Source of the DNA: the human T2T-CHM13v2.0 reference genome, Homo sapiens
Direction: 5' to 3' (one strand)
DNA length: 64,000 nt
Assembly (NCBI RefSeq): GCF_009914755.1
Contig: NC_060935.1
Part shown: piece after piece, positions 6,141 through 52,261 of the stretch
Numbering within the stretch: the stretch's first letter is position 1
Layout: every line of letters starts with the position of its first letter
Notes under the pieces: generated by a model
What the model was told of the DNA's origin: nothing
Databases searched by the model: none
What the model saw: only the letters and a program-made list of their open reading frames with translations
Made by a program: the position numbers and the translations under genes

Positions 6141-9100
6141 GGTGTAGTTGTGGGGGAGGAAGTGGCTAGCTCAGGGCTTCAGGGGACAGACAGGGAGAGA
6201 TGACTGAGTTAGATGAGACTAGGGGGCGGGCTGGGGGTGCGAGAAGGAAGCTTGGCAAGGAGACTAGGTCTAGGGGGACCACAGTGGGGCAGGCTGCATG
6301 GAAAATATCCGCAGGGTCCCCCAGGCAGAACAGCCACGCTCCAGGCCAGGCTGTCCCTACTGCCTGGTGGAGGGGGAACTTGACCTCTGGGAGGGCGCCG
6401 CTCTTGCATAGCTGAGCGAGCCCGGGTGCGCTGGTCTGTGTGGAAGGAGGAAGGCAGGGAGAGGTAGAAGGGGTGGAGGAGTCAGGAGGAATAGGCCGCA
6501 GCAGCCCTGGAAATGATCAGGAAGGCAGGCAGTGGGTGCAGGGCTGCAGGAGGGCCGGGAGGGCTAATCTTCAACTTGTCCATGCCAGCAGCCCCTTTTT
6601 TTCCAGACCAAGGGCTGTGAACCCGCCTGGGGATGAGGCCTGGTCTTGTGGAACTGAACTTAGCTCGACGGGGCTGACCGCTCTGGCCCAGGGTGGTATG
6701 TAATTTTCGCTCGGCCTGGGACGGGGCCCAGGCCGGGCCCAGCCTGGTGGAGCGTCCAGGTCTGGGTGCGAAGCCAGGCCCCTGGGCGGAGGTGAGGGGT
6801 GGTCTGAGGAGTGATGTGGAGTTAAGGCGCCATCCTCACCGGTGACTGGTGCGGCACCTAGCATGTTTGACAGGCGGGGACTGCGAGGCACGCTGCTCGG
6901 GTGTTGGGGACAACATTGACCAACGCTTTATTTTCCAGGTGGCAGTGCTCCTTTTGGACTTTTCTCTAGGTTTGGCGCTAAACTCTTCTTGTGAGCTCAC
7001 TCCACCCCTTCTTCCTCCCTTTAACTTATCCATTCACTTAAAACATTAGCTGGTCATCTGGTAAGCCCGGGACAGTAAGCCGAGTGGCTGTTGGAGTCGG
7101 TATTGTTGGTAATGGTGGAGGAAGAGAGGCCTTCCCGCTGAGGCTGGGGTGGGGCGGATCGGTGTTGCTTGCCTGCAGAGAGGGTGGGGAGTGAATGTGC
7201 ACCCTTGGGTGGGCCTGCAGCCATCCAGCTGAAAGTTACAAAAATGCTTCATGGACCGTGGTTTGTTACTATAGTGTTCCTCATGGCGAGCAGATGGAAC
7301 CGGGAGACATGGAGTCCCTGGCCAGTGTGAGTCCTAGCATTGCAGGAGGGGAGACCCTGGAGGAGAGAGCCCGCCTCAATTGATGCCTGCAGATTGAATT
7401 TCCAGAGGCTTAGGAGGAGGAAGTTCTCCAATGTTCTGTTTCCAGGCCTTGCTCAGGAAGCCCTGTATTCAGGAGGCTACCATTTAAAGTTTGCAGATGA
7501 GCTTATGGGGGGCAATCTTAAAAAGTCCACAGCAGATGCATCCGGCTCGAGGGGCCATCAGCTTTGAATAAATGCTTGTTCCAGAGCCCATGAATGCCAG
7601 CAGGCACCCCTCCTTTCCTGGGGTAAAGGTTTTCAGATGCTGCATCTTCTAAATTGAGCCTCCGGTCATACTAGTTTTGTGCTTGGAACCTTGCTTCAAG
7701 AAGATCCCTAAGCTGTAGAACATTTTAACGTTGATGCCACAACGCAGATTGATGCCTTGTAGATGGAGCTTGCAGATGGAGCCCCGTGACCTCTCACCTA
7801 CCCACCTGTTTGCCTGCCTTCTTGTGCGTTTCTCGGAGAAGTTCTTAGCCTGATGAAATAACTTGGGGCGTTGAAGAGCTGTTTAATTTTAAATGCCTTA
7901 GACTGGGGATATATTAGAGGAAGCAGATTGTCAAATTAAGGGTGTCATTGTGTTGTGCTAAACGCCGGGAGGGTACAAGTTGGTCATTCCTAAATCTGTG
8001 TGTGAGAAATGGCAGGTCTAGTTTGGGCATTGTGATTGCATTGCAGATTACTAGGAGAAGGGAATGGTGGGTACACCGGTAGTGCTCTTTTGTTCTTGCT
8101 TCGTTTTTTTAAACTTGAACTTTACTTCGTTAGATTTCATAATACTTTCTTGGCATTCTAGTAAGAGGACCCTGAGGTGGGAGTTGTGGGGGACGGGGAG
8201 AAGGGGACAGCTTGGCACCGGTCCCGTGGGCGTTGCAGTGTGGGGGATGGGGGTATGCAGCTTGGCACTGGTACTGGGAGGGATGAGGGTGAAGAAGGGG
8301 AGAGGGTTGGTTAGAGATACAGTGTGGGTGGTGGGGGTGGTAGGAAATGCAGGTTGAAGGGAATTCTCTGGGGCTTTGGGGAATTTAGTGCGTGGGTGAG
8401 CCAAGAAAATACTAATTAATAATAGTAAGTTGTTAGTGTTGGTTAAGTTGTTGCTTGGAAGTGAGAAGTTGCTTAGAAACTTTCCAAAGTGCTTAGAACT
8501 TTAAGTGCAAACAGACAAACTAACAAACAAAAATTGTTTTGCTTTGCTACAAGGTGGGGAAGACTGAAGAAGTGTTAACTGAAAACAGGTGACACAGAGT
8601 CACCAGTTTTCCGAGAACCAAAGGGAGGGGTGTGTGATGCCATCTCACAGGCAGGGGAAATGTCTTTACCAGCTTCCTCCTGGTGGCCAAGACAGCCTGT
8701 TTCAGAGGGTTGTTTTGTTTGGGGTGTGGGTGTTATCAAGTGAATTAGTCACTTGAAAGATGGGCGTCAGACTTGCATACGCAGCAGATCAGCATCCTTC
8801 GCTGCCCCTTAGCAACTTAGGTGGTTGATTTGAAACTGTGAAGGTGTGATTTTTTCAGGAGCTGGAAGTCTTAGAAAAGCCTTGTAAATGCCTATATTGT
8901 GGGCTTTTAACGTATTTAAGGGACCACTTAAGACGAGATTAGATGGGCTCTTCTGGATTTGTTCCTCATTTGTCACAGGTGTCTTGTGATTGAAAATCAT
9001 GAGCGAAGTGAAATTGCATTGAATTTCAAGGGAATTTAGTATGTAAATCGTGCCTTAGAAACACATCTGTTGTCTTTTCTGTGTTTGGTCGATATTAATA

Positions 9101-9844
9101 ATGGCAAAATTTTTGCCTATCTAGTATCTTCAAATTGTAGTCTTTGTAACAACCAAATAACCTTTTGTGGTCACTGTAAAATTAATATTTGGTAGACAGA
9201 ATCCATGTACCTTTGCTAAGGTTAGAATGAATAATTTATTGTATTTTTAATTTGAATGTTTGTGCTTTTTAAATGAGCCAAGACTAGAGGGGAAACTATC
9301 ACCTAAAATCAGTTTGGAAAACAAGACCTAAAAAGGGAAGGGGATGGGGATTGTGGGGAGAGAGTGGGCGAGGTGCCTTTACTACATGTGTGATCTGAAA
9401 ACCCTGCTTGGTTCTGAGCTGCGTCTATTGAATTGGTAAAGTAATACCAATGGCTTTTTATCATTTCCTTCTTCCCTTTAAGTTTCACTTGAAATTTTAA
9501 AAATCATGGTTATTTTTATCGTTGGGATCTTTCTGTCTTCTGGGTTCCATTTTTTAAATGTTTAAAAATATGTTGACATGGTAGTTCAGTTCTTAACCAA
9601 TGACTTGGGGATGATGCAAACAATTACTGTCGTTGGGATTTAGAGTGTATTAGTCACGCATGTATGGGGAAGTAGTCTCGGGTATGCTGTTGTGAAATTG
9701 AAACTGTAAAAGTAGATGGTTGAAAGTACTGGTATGTTGCTCTGTATGGTAAGAACTAATTCTGTTACGTCATGTACATAATTACTAATCACTTTTCTTC
9801 CCCTTTACAGCACAAATAAAGTTTGAGTTCTAAACTCATTAGAA
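6110..9844 (+). ncRNA. NEAT1: NEAT1_1 (MEN-epsilon), ~3.7-kb polyadenylated lncRNA isoform
   Basis: Recognised 5' sequence GGAGTTAGCGACAGGGAGGGATGCGCGCCTGG; AATAAA at 9815-9820 gives ~3.7 kb. Exact cleavage base is approximate. Confidence 0.95.
8590..8738 (+). repeat. Copy B of the ~170-bp direct repeat (copy A at 4681-4855)
   Basis: tgacacagagtcaccagttttccgagaa...gaaatgtctttaccagctt...ggttgttttgtttggggtgtgggtgtta. Confidence 0.85.
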
Positions 9845-24780: not shown

Positions 24781-25916
24781 TGAAAACTTTTTCAGGTTCT
24801 TCCAGGGTTACTGGGCTATTAAATATTTCTATTTCATTATAAGTCAGTTTTTCAAAGTTATATTATCTTAATTACCTTTTTTATATGTATTAGTGTAGAG
24901 TAGCATTTTATATTTTGATATCCTCCTTATGCATAGTTTTTCACTTTTTATTCCTAGTTTTTCGTTTTTAATAAGACTTTCAAGAAATTTATTTTATTGG
25001 CCTTTTGAAAAAAGCAGCTTTAGATAAAGTAAGCAGTTCTGCTTTCATTTTATAATTTATTTCTACTTTTGTTTCATTAATCTTTTCCTCCGGCATGCCT
25101 TGGATTTTGTTGTGTTACTCTTTTTCTAGAGGCTCGCATTGTGTGTCTGGTTCACTTATGATCACGCTTGCCTACTTTTAAGAATGGAAGAGGGGAGGTG
25201 GAGGGTGGCTGCACAGTCGAGGGTGTGAGGCAGTCTTGCTCTAGCCCCACCATGCCCTCAGCCCGCTGTGGCCACGCTGGTTCCTCAATTGCTGGGGCGT
25301 GCAGTGTCTGTAAGGGAGGCTACTGATGCCATCCGAGGAAGATGTAAGGTTTCGTGTGGGCAGCGAGAGCCTAGCAGGCATGTGGGGTGCCCAGCAAAGG
25401 GTAACAGTGGACAGTTGTTGCCTCATTCCACAGAGTTTTGATTTTTTTTTTTTTTTTAATGGTCACTCCATCAACATCCCCCATGGCCAGAGCCTGAGCT
25501 GGTCCCCAGAGACACAGGCATTCAGCTGACAGCCTCGCCTTCACGCTGCTGCTGTTCTCATGGGGGACAGGCCTCAGGTGGCAATGCACAAATCATTAGT
25601 TAAGGGCAGTTGTGACAGTTACCAAGGAGTGTAGTCCCCCGCCCCCCGCCCAGTGAAAACAGCCCTAACCAGGGGTGGGGACCTTTGGGCTCTGACCCGA
25701 AGGGTAGGAGAAGCTGGAAGGACAGCATTCCTGTCTGCGAAGGCAGGAGCAAAGCTGCCAGGCTATGAAGGAAATGGCTGGAGCCTGAAGTCATGCAAGC
25801 TGGGGCTGGCAGGGACAGGGCCAACTTCCAGGCCTGGGGGCCACCATGAGGATTCAGGACGTGACCCCCAGGGCACATGAAGGCCTTCCATCTGTATTTA
25901 AGAAAAGACTTTATCA

Positions 25917-26211
<295 letters not shown>

Positions 26212-27576
26212 TTATCTTATTTCCTATATGTTTGTGGTTTCAGTCCTGATGTATAATTTGACCCTAGTTAGAATGGTTATCTGAGGAAGTGGCCTGTACG
26301 ATTTCTGCTTTTTTAAATGTGTGGCTCCCTTTCTTCATTGATTAACGTATGATTATTTTTATAAATGTTCCATGGCAGTGGGAAGGGATTCTCTGTCACA
26401 TTCCACATCTGGATCAGTTCCTCCCCATTTTGTTGGTCAAATCCGATCTGCCATATCCTGTGTAATGACAAGTGAGTTGCATTCTCACCGTCACTCCTGG
26501 GGTCTCTCCGCTTCCCCTGAGCTGGCTCAGCAGTCTGCTCCATGTGTTTTGATGCAGGGTGACCCATTGGTATTCCCGACACTAACGCCCCCGTCTGTGG
26601 ACTGCTTGCTGCTTGGGCTTCACTGTGTCTGGTGTTGACAGTGCAGACCTAAAGGTGTGCACACATGTGCACACACACTCCGCTGTCTTCTTGTTTGCAC
26701 TGGACTTAAATATCTATGAGGGTTATTTTCAACTGCTGAATTTGGAATGATTTTTATATCTTTTCTGCTTTCTGCCCATGTACATGTGTTTATTTTACAC
26801 TGTTGTGATTGGTAGTTACTATGTGGGGACACAATTACTTGGGCTGAAATAATCCACCTGTTCTGGTTGGGGTCCTCTGGGGCATTCCAGGGTGAGAGGT
26901 TGTCACTGCCACCTGGGCCATGTGGGCCGGCACCAGCATTTTGTGGTTACGAATTCTACAGTCACAAATATCTTTGGGCAAATCCCCTTCTATACCTCAA
27001 GGCAGCTTTTGGTTTGCAACCCCACTGGCCAGAGGGAAGGGCCAGTCACTTGGCTCTCTCACTGCCCTGCGCCCCAGATGGTTCTAGGGCTGCTGTTTTC
27101 CCTTGGCCCTGCCAACACCACTGTTTTTACTTCTGCTCATTGGCTGAGTGCAGTGGTTCCTGGAAGCCAGTGGCACGTTTCCCCGCGTAGCTCGCTTATC
27201 CCACAGCACACACCCAAGGGTTCTGTTGCTAACACGCTGAATTAATTCTTTGCTCATCTTACAGAGTGTGTTTTGACTGCCCCCATTTCTGAGGCCTTGT
27301 AAGGCCAGAGCTTTGTTGCTTCATCGGCAGGTTGGGACTTAGATGGCCGTGAATGTTTCCTCTCTGCTGCTGCAGTAAGTAAGTGCCCGCACCATAGTGT
27401 GTTTGGAGGCTGAAGTTGAAGCGAGGCTGTGAGGGGAGATGGACGTGTGAGGAGGGATGATGGGGCTTGAGCAAAGTGGGGGAGGGGGCAAAGGCAGTTG
27501 GCCCAACACATTCCCCACCCCTTTGAGAGGTCTGAGGCCTGCAGACCTGGCTCGGAGCCCACCTGGTAGTCCTCAG

Positions 27577-27578
<2 letters not shown>

Positions 27579-27615
<37 letters not shown>
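27579..27615 (+). repeat. (TG)18 microsatellite, a UG tract near the NEAT1_2 3' end
   Basis: Uninterrupted TG run. Confidence 0.95.
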
Positions 27616-27619
<4 letters not shown>

Positions 27620-27750
27620 GAGAGAAGTTGTGGAGAAATGGGGGGCTGATTCTGCTCAGATTCATCAGGATGAGTAGAAGGCACCCAGCTCTCACCCTGG
27701 CCTGACATGTGTGTCCCTGAGCAGGTTACAGTCCTCTCTGAGCCTCTGCT

Positions 27751-27850
27751 TCCCATCTGGACCCTGCTGGGCAGGGCTTCTGAGCTCCTTAGCACTAGCA
27801 AGAGGGGCTCCAGGGGCCCTCCCTCCATGGCAGCCAGGACAGGACTCTCA
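27751..27850 (+). ncRNA. MIR612: pre-miR-612 hairpin (annotated mature sequence 27766-27790)
   Basis: Recognised mature sequence GCTGGGCAGGGCTTCTGAGCTCCTT; can pair with downstream AAGAGGGGCTCCAGGGGCCCT. Confidence 0.9.
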
Positions 27851-28708
27851 AATGAGGACAGCAGAGCTCGTGGGGGGCTCCCACGGACCCGCCGTGGGCC
27901 CAGGGGAGGCAGAGCCTGAGCCAACAGCAGTGGTGCTGTGGACTGTGGATCCTGAGGGTGGCCTGGGGCAAGTACCGGCTGAGGGTCCAGGTGGGCTTTG
28001 TGTACCTTTGGGTCCTGGGGCCCTGGTGACTTGGACTCCAGGTTAGAGTCAAGTGACAGGAGAAAGGCTGGTGGGGCCCTGTGCTTCCGACTTCATTTCG
28101 AGTGATGGCAGTTCCCAGGAAGGAATCCACAGCTGACGGTGGCTGACAGATCAGAGAATGGAAGGCGAGGCAGGCGGGCGTCTGCGTGACCTCAGGTGCT
28201 TGGGGCCCAGCAGACCCAGAGAACCATTTCCACTAGGCCAGGGTGCCGGAAGTGTCCACAGGTCTTAGGTTCCCTGTTCAGATGAAAAGATTTGTGCCTT
28301 TAATGATAAAAGTGATCTGCATAGAGTCAAAAATTCAAGCCATGGGTATAAAATGCAAGTAAAATCCCTGCCCTCACCTATCCCACCCTACTACACAGAG
28401 ATGTCCTCTCGAGTTTCCTAGACTCACTCTGGAAATTTCTGTATACACACAGAAGCTTGTGCCTCTGCTCGTGAAGGCAGAGGGAGGGAGAGCTGAAGGG
28501 CCAGCACCTTCTCACCTGTGGGCCCCCTCAGTGCTCGGTCCCAGAGCATGCAGGACTGTGCCTCGTGTTCAGTTTGCTGGTCTGACTTCATGCTCCTTGG
28601 GCAGGATATGCATGTGCCATGCTAGGAGACATGTGGATGTGAAGCTGGGGGACAATGTCCCCTGGCTATGCCTTTACAAGGGAAGTAAGGAAGGTAGGAG
28701 GTGAGCCT

Positions 28709-28723
28709 GGGAGGGAGGGAGGG
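28709..28723 (+). other. G-quadruplex motif (GGGA)3GGG
   Basis: Four G3 tracts with 1-nt loops, ending 22 nt before the triple helix. Confidence 0.85.
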
Positions 28724-28745
28724 AGGCGCGGAGCCGCCGCAGGTG

Positions 28746-28833
28746 TTTCTTTTACTGAGTGCAGCCCATGGCCGCACTCAGGTTTTGCTTTTCACCTTCC
28801 CATCTGTGAAAGAGTGAGCAGGAAAAAGCAAAA
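28746..28833 (+). other. 3' triple-helix (ENE-like) stability element of NEAT1_2
   Basis: U-rich motif 1 TTTCTTTT (28746-28753), hairpin CTGAGTGC/GCACTCAG (28755-28781), U-rich motif 2 TTTTGCTTTT (28783-28792), complementary A-rich tract AAAAAGCAAAA (28823-28833). Confidence 0.96.
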
Positions 28834-28892
28834 GGCGCTGGTGGTGGCACGTCCAGCACGGCTGGGCCGGGGTTCGAGTCCCCGCAGTGTTG
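28834..28892 (+). ncRNA. menRNA, a 59-nt tRNA-like small RNA (RNase P/RNase Z substrate)
   Basis: Acceptor stem GGCGCTG/CAGTGTT, mini D-arm GTG-GTGG-CAC, arm GTCCAGC-ACG-GCTGGGC, T-arm CGGGG-TTCGAGT-CCCCG, discriminator G, no encoded CCA. Confidence 0.95.
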
Positions 28893-30396
28893 CTGCTTCC
28901 TTCCAGCTCCCTCCTCCAGGCCTCTCCTCCCACCCCACCAGGGATATCTTGTCTCCTAGAGGGGTAGCATTGGGTGGGGCACCCCAGGCCTCTCCCAGAA
29001 GCCCTCCTGCCCTGCTATCCCCTCCCTCATCCTCTGGGGCCCTGGGAATACAGCAGGGGACGTGGGGCCACAGGCAGCTGATAACTTAGCCCCCTCAGCC
29101 ACTCCTGTGGGAGCGGGAGGGGGACAGCTTGGCGGCTCTGCACCCAAAGCTGTGGGGCCTACCTGGAGTGTCCCCACCCCTCAGGGCATACTCCCCACTG
29201 CCCTCTTCTTCCCAGGATCAACTCACCGCTACCCTCCTCTCCACATCTGAGGACCAGCGTGGCTCTTCCAGGGAGGGCTTGGGGAGATGAGGTCCAAGGG
29301 GAGAGGCCAGAAATCCTGAGGCCTGGGCTGGAGATGGGTGGGCGGACAGGGCCCAACGAACCGGCCCTTGTGCAGGAAGGCCAACAGCTGGGACCACAAG
29401 GTGCCGGGTGGGACAGGGAAGTCAGCCTGTGCTCTCCAGGCACCTGGGACCCAGGAGATCCCCCCGGCTCAGCACCAGCAGAGGCAGCTGCTGTGATCCT
29501 GGGCAGGCAGTGTCCTCCTCCCTCAGTCTCTGCCCCCTCCCATCCCCAAGAGGGAGGCCAGGGGCTCACAGTCCATTTCATGGGCCATGATACTGATGCT
29601 GTCTGCAGTTGGGGCAGCTTGCCTGACCACAAGGCTCTCCAGGGAGCCCCTGCCAATCACTATAATAATCTCCTTTAACGAGTCAGGCCCCATAAGGAAC
29701 AGCCAGAAGCAGGAGAGAGGTATGCAGAGCTGGCCTATGGAGGCTTGCCATCTCTTCTGACCCCACAGAGCCCACTCAGAATACCACGCCCTAGTGGGTC
29801 TTCCCAGCCCAAACTCAAGTCACAGGATGGCACAGGTCCTCTAGGGAGAGCTGGGCTCCCATGGGGTGGAGGGAGCCCCAAACCTCAACAAGGCTGAGGG
29901 GATGCAGTATGCAGGGCCAGGGAAGGGAGCCAGGAGACAGAGGGGCCGAAAGCCAGTCAGCTTTGGTGGAGAGAACCCTTCATGAGGAGCCCTGGCTTGG
30001 GCCTCCTGGTCAAGGAGTGTTTGCAGCAATCTGTAGTCCCTTAGCCCCTGGCAAGTTCTGGTGCCAGAAAATCCCCTCCGGAGCTGGTGTCTCTCTCATT
30101 CAAGGGGTGAGAAGAGGCAGCGTGAAGCCGAGGTCTTGGCCGGCCATGCCTGGGTGGTGAGGCCACAAGTCCACCCCTGCAACTGCAAGGGCAGCAGGGA
30201 GGAGCTGCAGGATCTGCTGTCCTTGGATGTGATCAGCCTGCCACTGGGGACCAACAGGCCTAGACTCATACATGAGCCAAGGCACAGAGCCCAGGACTGA
30301 AGACAGAGAGGAGCCACCACACGGCAAAAGAGCATGGACATCTGAGTGCCACCTAGCCTGTGTGAGACTCCGTTTCTCTATCTCTAAAATGGAGTC

Positions 30397-30945
<549 letters not shown>

Positions 30946-30954
30946 AATACCTGA

Positions 30955-31539
30955 TACTGAAATTTAGGTCTCACAATTCTGGAGGCTGGGAAATCCAAAA
31001 TCAAGGTACAGGCATCTGGGGAGGGCCTTCTTGTTGCATCCTCACATGGTGGAAGAGCAGAAGATGGCAAACCCACTCCCACAAGCTCTTTTTATTTTAT
31101 GTTTTGAGATGGAGTCTCACTCTGTCACCAGGCTGGAATGCAGTGGCACTATCTCAGCTCACTGCAGCTTCCGCCTCCCAAGTTCCGCCTCCCAAATTCT
31201 TCTGCCTCAGCCTTCCAAGTAGCCGGGACTACAGGCGTGCACCACCATGCCCAGCTATTTTTGTATTTTTAGCAGAGACGGGGTTTCACCATGTTGGCCA
31301 GGATGGTCTCAATCTCTTGACCTCGTGATCCGCCCGCCTCAGCCTCCCGAAGTTCTGGGATTACAGGCATGAGCCACCATGCCCAGCCACAAGCTCTTTT
31401 TATAAGGGCCCCAGTCCATTTGTGAAGGAGGAACCCTCATGACCCAATCCCCTCTCAGAGGCCCCCTTTCCAGTATGTCATCTTGGTGATTAGGTTTCAA
31501 TGTGGCTTTTGGAGGGAACACCACATGCAAACCATAGCA
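30955..31539. mobile_element. MaLR LTR (MLT1/MST-like) split by an antisense Alu (~31090-31388)
   Basis: tctcacaattctggaggctgggaaatccaaaatcaagg...cctcacatggtggaag and ccctcatgacc...ttaggtttcaa...aaaccatagca; Alu TSD ccacaagctcttttt. Confidence 0.75.

Positions 31540-40790: not shown

Positions 40791-52261
<11,471 letters not shown>

What the first reader, a model, noticed from the sequence alone, without database searches (positions are those of the whole stretch)
28746..28892. Non-poly(A) 3'-end system: triple helix plus tRNA-like menRNA
Seen: two U-rich motifs bracket a hairpin; TTTTGCTTTT pairs with the genomically encoded AAAAGCAAAA, and TTTCTTTT can act as the third strand (U-A.U triples interrupted by C-G.C). 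The next base starts a 59-nt cloverleaf with a canonical T-loop, shrunken D and anticodon arms and no CCA. Established: RNase P cuts at 28833/28834 to make the NEAT1_2 3' end and RNase Z releases menRNA, as for MALAT1/mascRNA. This is the most striking system in the window, but it is already described.
Basis: partly seen in the sequence, partly recalled or inferred. Interest (0 to 1): 0.8.

Follow-up and report, generated by a model that had tools for sequence, protein, structure and literature searches.

The report
NEAT1 triple helix plus menRNA
This is the well-described end of the human NEAT1 long RNA, where a tRNA-shaped piece is cut off and the remaining A-rich tail tucks into a protective triple helix instead of receiving a poly(A) tail.

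Summary
TTTCTTTT (28746-28753) and TTTTGCTTTT (28783-28792) bracket a hairpin. The second motif is the exact complement of AAAAGCAAAA (28824-28833). A 59-nt cloverleaf starts at 28834.

Rfam's mascRNA-menRNA model scores 67.2 bits against a cut-off of 42.5. The three-part motif occurs exactly twice in the 3.1-Gb genome, at NEAT1 and at MALAT1, and never in the reversed control.

The 59 nt are identical to the published human menRNA. My helix boundaries match its 2.23 A crystal structure. The third-strand register gives 8 triples plus a C-G doublet, as published. Knockouts of RNase P components block MEN-beta 3'-end processing.

The system is already known, so interest is low.

In passing I found that a purine-rich tract, which holds the known G-quadruplex NEAT1_22619, is strongly complementary to the pyrimidine-rich trailer after menRNA. 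MALAT1 lacks this. I could not test its conservation and found no description of it.

The parts
28746..28753 (+). U-rich motif 1 (TTTCTTTT), the Hoogsteen third strand
   Evidence: The best parallel register pairs U28746-48 with A28825-27, C28749 with G28828, and U28750-53 with A28830-33. The motif is left unpaired in the MFE.
28754..28782 (+). Apical hairpin between the U-rich motifs (29 nt), closed by an A28754/G28782 mismatch
   Evidence: and 48 (I4). It has an 8-bp stem plus a 3-bp distal stem. The first 5 bp (CUGAG/CUCAG) are shared with MALAT1 and the distal part differs. The A-G pair next to the triplex is mentioned in PMC13403906.
28783..28792 (+). U-rich motif 2 (TTTTGCTTTT), the Watson-Crick strand
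   Evidence: Exact reverse complement of 28824-28833 (and 48, I8).
28793..28822 (+). Linker with an imperfect stem (30 nt)
   Evidence: The length agrees with the 29.8 +/- 1.06 bp reported for NEAT1 orthologs in PMC12941219.
28823..28833 (+). Genomically encoded A-rich tract (AAAAAGCAAAA). A28833 is the mature NEAT1_2 3' end, and RNase P cuts between 28833 and 28834.
   Evidence: The RefSeq NR_131012.1 end is at 28833 (hub annotation). No AATAAA or ATTAAA lies between 24818 and 30557. RNase P dependence comes from PMC13408128.
28834..28892 (+). menRNA, a 59-nt tRNA-like RNA. Acceptor 1-7/52-58, D arm 8-17, anticodon-equivalent arm 18-34, T arm 35-51, discriminator G59. RNase Z cuts after 28892.
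   Evidence: RF01684 at 67.2 bits. MFE cloverleaf. Identical to the published sequence. Same helix bounds as crystal structure 8K1E in PMC11693755.
28871..28881 (+). T-arm core GGTTCGAGTCC (B-box-like, with a canonical 7-nt T loop)
   Evidence: The consensus used in the regex is recalled. The T stem-loop superimposes on tRNA in PMC11693755.
28709..28723 (+). Adjacent element, not part of the core system: G-quadruplex motif NEAT1_22619, 22 nt upstream of motif 1
   Evidence: Sequence and NONO binding are reported in PMC7367201.
28893..28942 (+). Tentative: pyrimidine-rich trailer complementary to the purine-rich tract 28690-28739
   Evidence: Prediction only; conservation not tested.

Best explanation
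This is the 3'-end maturation and stabilisation module of human NEAT1_2 (MEN-beta).

Pol II transcribes through the module. The 59-nt tRNA-like menRNA folds into an L-shape whose elbow and 12-bp acceptor/T stack are read by RNase P. RNase P cuts between A28833 and G28834. That cut makes the mature NEAT1_2 3' end and the menRNA 5' end at the same time. RNase Z then cuts after the discriminator G28892.

The freed A-rich end (28824-28833) pairs with U-rich motif 2 (28783-92). U-rich motif 1 (28746-53) lies in its major groove. Together they form 8 triples, 7 U.A-U and one C.G-C, interrupted by a C-G doublet. The terminal A stacks under the apical hairpin, which hides the 3' OH from 3'-5' exonucleases and replaces a poly(A) tail.

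menRNA receives CCA or CCACCA and is short-lived. Its sequence fits that fate: a 5' GG and three G-U pairs in the acceptor stem.

What is shown here is the sequence anatomy, the family score, genome-wide uniqueness and paralogy with MALAT1. The cleavages, the physical triplex, the protection from decay and the menRNA structure are taken from the literature. The link from acceptor-stem weakness to CCACCA tagging of the human RNA is inferred.
For: Anatomy:
- Anatomy and exact complementarity of motif 2 and the A tract.
- The fold leaves motif 1 free, z -2.89.
- The best third-strand register gives 8 contiguous triples with the skip at C28829. PMC13403906 states 8 triples for NEAT1 and 10 for MALAT1, and my script finds 10 for MALAT1.

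Family and uniqueness:
- RF01684 at 67.2 bits, full-length match 1-56.
- Only two RF01684 matches over the cut-off in the genome, NEAT1 and MALAT1, among 68 scored candidates.
- The composite motif has 2 genome hits and 0 in the reversed control.

Paralogy with MALAT1:
- Colinear similarity between 3 kb around each 3' end is confined to window 28741-28898.
- Stems are kept with different bases. In the anticodon-equivalent stem, 3 of the 6 aligned pairs differ on both sides.

No polyadenylation signal:
- There is no AATAAA or ATTAAA from 24818 to 30557.

Literature, read as passages unless stated otherwise:
- menRNA sequence identical to the window (PMC9777231).
- Crystal structure of human menRNA at 2.23 A with the same helix bounds (PMC11693755, whole text).
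- RPPH1 and RPP21 knockouts inhibit MEN-beta 3' processing and reduce its level (PMC13408128).
- The MEN-beta triple helix shows separate Hoogsteen and Watson-Crick melting peaks, and displacing the A tract lowers MEN-beta about 2-fold (PMC10855403).
- The triplex-forming motif has no mismatch in any of 506 NEAT1 and 469 MALAT1 orthologs (PMC12941219).
Against: Nothing found contradicts the explanation. The weak points are these.
- The cloverleaf's folding energy is not exceptional: z -1.16, and 26 of 200 shuffles fold as well.
- An unconstrained fold of the 261-nt precursor prefers an alternative pairing of 28733-28747 with the 5' half of menRNA. It is 5.4 kcal/mol better than the fold with the known modules enforced. 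That model ignores triplex and elbow tertiary contacts.
- The primary papers (Sunwoo 2009, Wilusz 2008/2011/2012, Brown 2012) are not held. I know their content only through later papers.
- The review I read attributes the GG plus weak-stem CCACCA rule to the mouse RNA (PMC10275265). For the human RNA I rely on statements in PMC9777231 and PMC11693755.
Confidence: 0.97

Rival explanations
1. The cloverleaf is an ordinary or decayed Pol III tRNA gene, or a tRNA-derived repeat, that happens to lie after an A-rich stretch. On this view the NEAT1_2 end is made by another route.
For: There is a B-box-like GGTTCGAGTCC with a canonical 7-nt T loop, and a 7-bp acceptor stem.
Against: - ARAGORN calls no tRNA in 28000-29500.
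- The anticodon-equivalent loop has 3-5 nt, and there are no linker residues or variable loop.
- There is no match to my recalled A-box consensus, and no T4 run between 28893 and 29400.
- The best Rfam family is mascRNA-menRNA, not tRNA.
- The only paralog in the genome sits in the same position behind the MALAT1 triple helix.
Confidence: 0.01
2. This is a PAN-type ENE. The U-rich loop would clamp a post-transcriptionally added poly(A) tail made at a downstream cleavage and polyadenylation site, and the encoded A tract would be incidental.
For: The U-rich internal loop architecture is shared with the KSHV PAN ENE (PMC13403906 and PMC10855403).
Against: - There is no AATAAA or ATTAAA for 4 kb upstream and 1.66 kb downstream.
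- The A tract carries a GC that exactly mirrors the GC in motif 2, and a C in motif 1 lies opposite the G. A homopolymeric tail could not satisfy this.
- The tRNA-like element begins at the very next base.
- Published RNase P dependence.
Confidence: 0.01
3. The match is a chance co-occurrence of low-complexity U-rich and A-rich runs beside a GC-rich hairpin cluster.
For: The cloverleaf folding energy is not significant on its own.
Against: - 0 of 100 shuffles contain the two-part motif.
- The three-part motif has 2 hits in 3.1 Gb and 0 in the reversed control, and both hits are followed at once by an RF01684 match.
- The Rfam E-value is 5.5e-13.
Confidence: 0.005

Closest known systems
MALAT1 ENE+A triple helix with mascRNA (the paralogous module 60.6 kb downstream on the same strand)
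   Same: - Same order of parts: U-rich motif 1, hairpin, U-rich motif 2, linker, encoded A-rich tract, then a tRNA-like RNA starting at the next base.
- Same TTTCTTTT, TTTTGCTTTT and AAAAGCAAAA cores.
- Same Rfam family for the small RNA.
- Same RNase P/Z processing.
   Different: - NEAT1 has 8 triples against 10. The base 5' of its third-strand U run is G, and its A run is 5 A long against 13.
- An A-G mismatch closes the apical hairpin, where MALAT1 has C-G.
- Between the motif cores as I delimited them, the linker is 30 nt against 16 nt.
- menRNA starts with GG and has 3 G-U pairs in the acceptor stem. mascRNA starts with GA and has 2 G-U pairs.
- menRNA has a 4-nt D loop and a 7-bp anticodon-equivalent stem. 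mascRNA has 5 nt and 6 bp.
- menRNA is unstable and scarce, while mascRNA is abundant.
- Only NEAT1 has the G-rich and C-rich complementary flanks.
KSHV PAN RNA ENE and other poly(A)-clamping ENEs
   Same: A U-rich internal loop in a stem-loop captures an A-rich 3' end as a major-groove triple helix and protects a nuclear RNA from decay (PMC13403906 and PMC10855403 passages).
   Different: Those elements bind a post-transcriptional poly(A) tail. Here the A tract is encoded, interrupted by GC, and exposed by RNase P.
Canonical pre-tRNA 5' and 3' processing
   Same: The 12-bp acceptor/T stack, the T loop with D-loop GG elbow, a discriminator base, RNase P at position +1, RNase Z after the discriminator, and CCA addition.
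   Different: - There is no 7-nt anticodon loop, no linker residues and no variable loop, and the D arm is reduced. ARAGORN does not call it.
- It is not aminoacylated (stated for mascRNA in PMC11693755).
- The functional product of the RNase P cut is the upstream RNA, not the tRNA-like part.

Membership tests
Rfam RF01684 mascRNA-menRNA | Covariance-model score at or above the gathering score (42.5 bits) over the full model | tested here: met
   67.2 bits, model positions 1-56 of 56, E 5.5e-13, at 28834-28891.
Rfam RF01684 mascRNA-menRNA | Reduced cloverleaf: 7-bp acceptor, 3-bp D stem, long anticodon-equivalent stem with compact loop, 5-bp T stem with 7-nt T loop, no linker residues | tested here: met
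   The MFE equals the centroid structure, with helix lists. The bounds equal those of the crystal structure in PMC11693755.
Rfam RF01684 mascRNA-menRNA | Begins at the base after the A-rich tract of a triple-helix element | tested here: met
   A28833/G28834. The arrangement is the same at MALAT1.
Rfam RF01684 mascRNA-menRNA | Identity with the published human menRNA | tested here: met
   The 59 nt printed equal the sequence given in PMC9777231 section 2.13.
Rfam RF01684 mascRNA-menRNA | Released by RNase P and RNase Z, with CCA or CCACCA added | not testable with these tools
   Literature only: PMC13408128, PMC9777231, PMC11693755.
MALAT1/MEN-beta type ENE+A triple helix | Two U-rich motifs flanking a stem-loop, with motif 2 complementary to an encoded A-rich tract carrying a GC interruption | tested here: met
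   (I8). Genome-wide there are only 2 instances.
MALAT1/MEN-beta type ENE+A triple helix | Motif 1 aligns parallel to the A tract as U.A-U triples, with one C.G-C triple and a C-G doublet | tested here: met
   The register search gives 8 contiguous triples with the skip at C28829. This matches the '8 base triples' in PMC13403906.
MALAT1/MEN-beta type ENE+A triple helix | Physical triple helix that protects the 3' end from decay | not testable with these tools
   Literature only: UV melting and A-tract displacement for MEN-beta (PMC10855403), and a reporter falling from 72.8% to 0.6% when the triplex is mutated (PMC13403906).
MALAT1/MEN-beta type ENE+A triple helix | No cleavage and polyadenylation signal at the 3' end | tested here: met
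   No AATAAA or ATTAAA between 24818 and 30557. In contrast, the short isoform has AATAAA at 9815, 29 nt before its annotated end.
Canonical tRNA gene | Recognised by a tRNA finder, with a 7-nt anticodon loop, linker residues and a variable loop | tested here: not met
   ARAGORN finds 0 genes. The loop has 3-5 nt and there are no linkers.
Canonical tRNA gene | Pol III signals: A box, B box and a downstream T4+ terminator | tested here: not met
   The B-box-like motif is present, there is no A-box match, and there is no T4 run in 28893-29400. Both box consensus sequences are recalled, not taken from a tool.

The most novel reading that the evidence does not exclude
In human NEAT1, but not MALAT1, the triple-helix/menRNA module may be clamped in the precursor by a long helix. 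One strand would be the purine-rich tract 28690-28739, which contains the NONO-binding G-quadruplex NEAT1_22619. The other would be the pyrimidine-rich trailer 28893-28942.

Such a precursor-only helix could compete with the G-quadruplex and with the cloverleaf. It could therefore set the rate of RNase P/Z processing, or couple 3'-end maturation to exposure of a NONO site at the paraspeckle shell.

Support:
- Duplex energy of -59.1 kcal/mol.
- 0 of 2273 pairs at the same spacing in the NEAT1 body are as strong, and 21 of 6375 in the whole window.
- The MALAT1 flanks give -14.3.
- The precursor fold has z -5.24.

Against:
- Both tracts are low-complexity, and purine-rich and pyrimidine-rich runs pair by composition alone.
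- I chose the spacing and boundaries after seeing the pairing.
- With G-quadruplex energies switched on, the model keeps the quadruplex in both precursor and mature RNA, so a simple switch is not supported.
- Conservation could not be tested.
Probability: 0.1. Interest if true: 0.45.

Novelty: already known. Interest (0 to 1): 0.12.

Why it matters
The module is one of only two cases in the human genome where tRNA-processing enzymes make the end of a Pol II long non-coding RNA and a triple helix replaces the poly(A) tail. It sets the stability of NEAT1_2, the scaffold of paraspeckles. It is also being pursued as a drug and antisense target and as a synthetic-biology part.

For the scan, the value is as a positive control. 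A reader without tools located the system to the base and interpreted it correctly. Nothing new about the system itself follows from this window.

Tried and rejected
- ARAGORN on 28000-29500 found nothing. This is expected for a reduced tRNA mimic and does not count against the finding.
- Rfam has no model that hit the triple helix itself. In 26000-31000 at E up to 1, the only hit inside the finding is RF01684.
- A DNA similarity search of the genome with 28735-28900 found only the query itself. MALAT1 is too diverged for that first look, but it was found by the covariance model and by the pattern.
- The primary papers (Brown 2012, Wilusz 2008/2011/2012, Sunwoo 2009) are not held, so I used later papers that cite them.
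- I tested the idea that RNase P cleavage switches the G-rich tract from a helix to a G-quadruplex. With G-quadruplex energies on, ViennaRNA predicts the quadruplex in both precursor and mature RNA, so I dropped the simple version.
- No orthologous vertebrate sequences are reachable with these tools, so I did no covariation analysis beyond the single human paralog pair.
- I made no structure or complex predictions, because the element encodes no protein.

Full report
**1. The observation**

Reading 5' to 3' on the + strand:
- TTTCTTTT at 28746-28753.
- A 29-nt hairpin at 28754-28782.
- TTTTGCTTTT at 28783-28792.
- A 30-nt linker at 28793-28822.
- AAAAAGCAAAA at 28823-28833.
- A 59-nt segment at 28834-28892, followed by CTG, so no CCA is encoded.

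Motif 2 is the exact reverse complement of 28824-28833 (pair I8).

A fold of 28740-28833 recovers the hairpin and the motif 2/A-tract duplex. It leaves motif 1 single-stranded, as a third strand must be. The z-score is -2.89, and 1 of 200 shuffles folds as well.

The 59-nt segment folds, in both MFE and centroid, into a cloverleaf:
- A 7-bp acceptor stem.
- A 3-bp D stem with a 4-nt loop.
- A 7-bp anticodon-equivalent stem with a 3-nt loop.
- A 5-bp T stem with the 7-nt loop UUCGAGU.
- One unpaired 3' base.

Its energy is not unusual for its composition: z is -1.16, and 26 of 200 shuffles fold as well. Energy alone would not establish the cloverleaf.

**2. More than chance**

- The two-part motif occurs once in the window and in 0 of 100 shuffles.
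- The three-part motif (motif 1, a gap, motif 2, a gap, A tract) occurs exactly twice in the 3.1-Gb genome. Both hits are on the + strand of contig 11, at NEAT1 and 60.6 kb downstream at MALAT1. The reversed-pattern control gives 0 hits.
- Rfam's mascRNA-menRNA model (RF01684) scores 67.2 bits over its full length at 28834-28891. The gathering score is 42.5 and the E-value is 5.5e-13.
- Genome-wide, that model finds two matches over the cut-off, at the same two loci. This is among 68 scored candidates, so it is a lower bound.
- ARAGORN calls no tRNA, which fits a reduced mimic.

**3. Anatomy of the triplex**

I slid motif 1 parallel to the purine strand and allowed one skipped base. The best register skips C28829 and gives 8 contiguous compatible triples:
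- U28746-48 over A28825-27.
- C28749 over G28828.
- U28750-53 over A28830-33.

A ninth position, U28744 over A28823, is separated by G28745 and has no Watson-Crick partner.

The same script gives 10 triples for MALAT1. PMC13403906 (passages) states 8 base triples for NEAT1 and 10 for MALAT1. It also mentions the natural A-G pair next to the NEAT1 triplex, which is A28754/G28782 here.

The terminal A28833 pairs with U28783, directly under the apical hairpin, so the 3' end is buried at the helix junction. This last point is my inference from the register.

**4. The tRNA-like RNA**

The 59 nt are identical to the human menRNA sequence printed in PMC9777231, section 2.13 (one search compared).

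PMC11693755 (whole text read) reports the crystal structure of human menRNA at 2.23 A, PDB 8K1E. Its helix bounds are acceptor 1-7/52-58, D arm 8-17, anticodon-equivalent arm 18-34 and T arm 35-51. These are exactly the bounds of my fold.

That paper describes three features. The D arm is smaller than in tRNA. The anticodon-equivalent stem is longer and carries a compact loop. The eight linker residues of tRNA are absent.

The acceptor stem has three G-U pairs (G1-U58, G2-U57, G4-U55), and the RNA begins with GG. mascRNA begins with GA and has two G-U pairs. A weak acceptor stem together with a 5' GG is the stated trigger for CCACCA addition, shown for the mouse RNA (PMC10275265, one passage). 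PMC9777231 and PMC11693755 state that human menRNA is CCACCA-tagged and scarce. Applying the rule to the human sequence is my inference.

**5. Paralogy with MALAT1**

An alignment of the two modules shows all three triplex strands invariant, along with the first 5 bp of the apical stem, the 5' acceptor and D region, and the T arm.

A blastn of 3 kb around each 3' end finds colinear similarity only in window 28741-28898.

Stems are kept with different bases. Using the Rfam register, 3 of the 6 aligned pairs of the anticodon-equivalent stem differ on both sides. All acceptor differences are one-sided changes between standard pairs.

With only two sequences this is weak as statistics. PMC12941219 (passages) reports that the triplex-forming motif has no mismatch in any of 506 NEAT1 and 469 MALAT1 orthologs. 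It also reports co-evolving pairs in the tRNA-like part. Its hairpin and linker lengths for NEAT1, 28.7 and 29.8 nt, match the 29 and 30 nt found here.

**6. Mechanism and its basis**

There is no AATAAA or ATTAAA between 24818 and 30557. The short isoform, in contrast, has AATAAA at 9815, 29 nt before its annotated end at 9844. The RefSeq long isoform ends at 28833 (hub annotation).

[quoted passage not shown] It measured the uncleaved MEN-beta-menRNA junction by nested qPCR.

PMC10855403 (passages) reports separate Hoogsteen and Watson-Crick melting peaks for the MEN-beta triple helix. It also reports a 2-fold loss of MEN-beta when the A tract is displaced.

PMC13403906 reports that a reporter ending in the NEAT1 triplex gives 72.8% of the control signal. 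The reporter gives 0.6% when the triplex is mutated.

The primary papers (Sunwoo 2009; Wilusz 2008, 2011, 2012; Brown 2012) are not held. I saw them only as citations.

**7. Rivals**

- A Pol III tRNA gene is excluded and by the loop sizes.
- A PAN-type poly(A) clamp is excluded in two ways. The GC in the A tract is mirrored in both U-rich motifs. No poly(A) signal is present.
- Chance is excluded.

**8. Surroundings**

The G-quadruplex motif GGGAGGGAGGGAGGG lies at 28709-28723, 22 nt upstream of motif 1. It is the published NEAT1_22619, which folds in potassium and binds NONO (PMC7367201, passages). That paper contains no mention of 'triple helix'.

The purine-rich tract around it (28690-28739; the overlapping stretch 28680-28731 is 85% purine) is complementary to the pyrimidine-rich trailer just after menRNA (28893-28942, 78% pyrimidine).
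- The duplex energy is -59.1 kcal/mol.
- Among 50-nt pairs at the same spacing, 21 of 6375 in the window are as strong. The 15 strongest of these all lie beyond 30 kb.
- 0 of 2273 such pairs inside the NEAT1 body are as strong.
- The equivalent MALAT1 flanks give -14.3.
- The 261-nt precursor folds with z -5.24, and 0 of 200 shuffles fold as well.

Four cautions apply. The tracts are low-complexity. I chose the spacing after seeing the pairing. The shuffles destroy local composition. With G-quadruplex energies on, the quadruplex is predicted in both precursor and mature RNA.

A search for papers holding both 'menRNA' and 'G-quadruplex' gave 4 papers, none about this feature by title or abstract. 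I cannot say it is absent from print beyond that search. I could not test conservation.

**9. Verdict**

The system is already known in detail, down to a crystal structure of the small RNA. Interest is low. The only loose end is the NEAT1-specific flank complementarity.

Noticed in passing
window 28690-28739 with 28893-28942: The purine-rich leader, which holds the G-quadruplex motif, is complementary to the pyrimidine-rich trailer after menRNA, so the two bracket the whole module. The duplex energy is -59.1 kcal/mol. 0 of 2273 pairs at the same spacing in the NEAT1 body are as strong, and the MALAT1 flanks give only -14.3. With G4 energies on, the quadruplex is preferred. Conservation was not tested.
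   Followed up: partly
window 28709-28723: A G-quadruplex motif with four G3 tracts and 1-nt A loops lies 22 nt upstream of U-rich motif 1. It is the published NONO-binding NEAT1_22619. The papers I read do not discuss its position next to the triple helix.
   Followed up: partly
window 28733-28747 with 28834-28848: The unconstrained MFE of the 261-nt precursor pairs the leader, including two bases of U-rich motif 1, with the 5' acceptor and D region of menRNA. This is 5.4 kcal/mol better than the fold with the known modules enforced. It could be a competing precursor conformer or a model artefact.
   Followed up: no
window 24818-30557: No AATAAA or ATTAAA hexamer occurs for 4 kb before or 1.66 kb after the NEAT1_2 3' end. 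How Pol II terminates downstream is not evident from the sequence.
   Followed up: no
window 9815-9844: AATAAA lies 29 nt upstream of the annotated NEAT1_1 (short isoform) end. This is the canonical poly(A) site that competes with read-through to the triple-helix end.
   Followed up: no
window 27757-27842: The mir-612 precursor lies inside NEAT1_2, about 1 kb upstream of the triple helix (RF00959, 107.8 bits against a cut-off of 100).
   Followed up: no
window 6585-7430: The three Rfam NEAT1 conserved regions (RF01955, RF01956, RF01957) hit near the 5' end of the gene at 126, 87.7 and 163.4 bits.
   Followed up: no
window 26049-26196, 30398-30933, 45459-45575, 50383-50530: There are partial Metazoa_SRP hits, with overlapping weak mir-1268, mir-3135 and mir-1972 hits. 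The pattern looks like Alu elements; that label is my recollection and no tool confirmed it.
   Followed up: no
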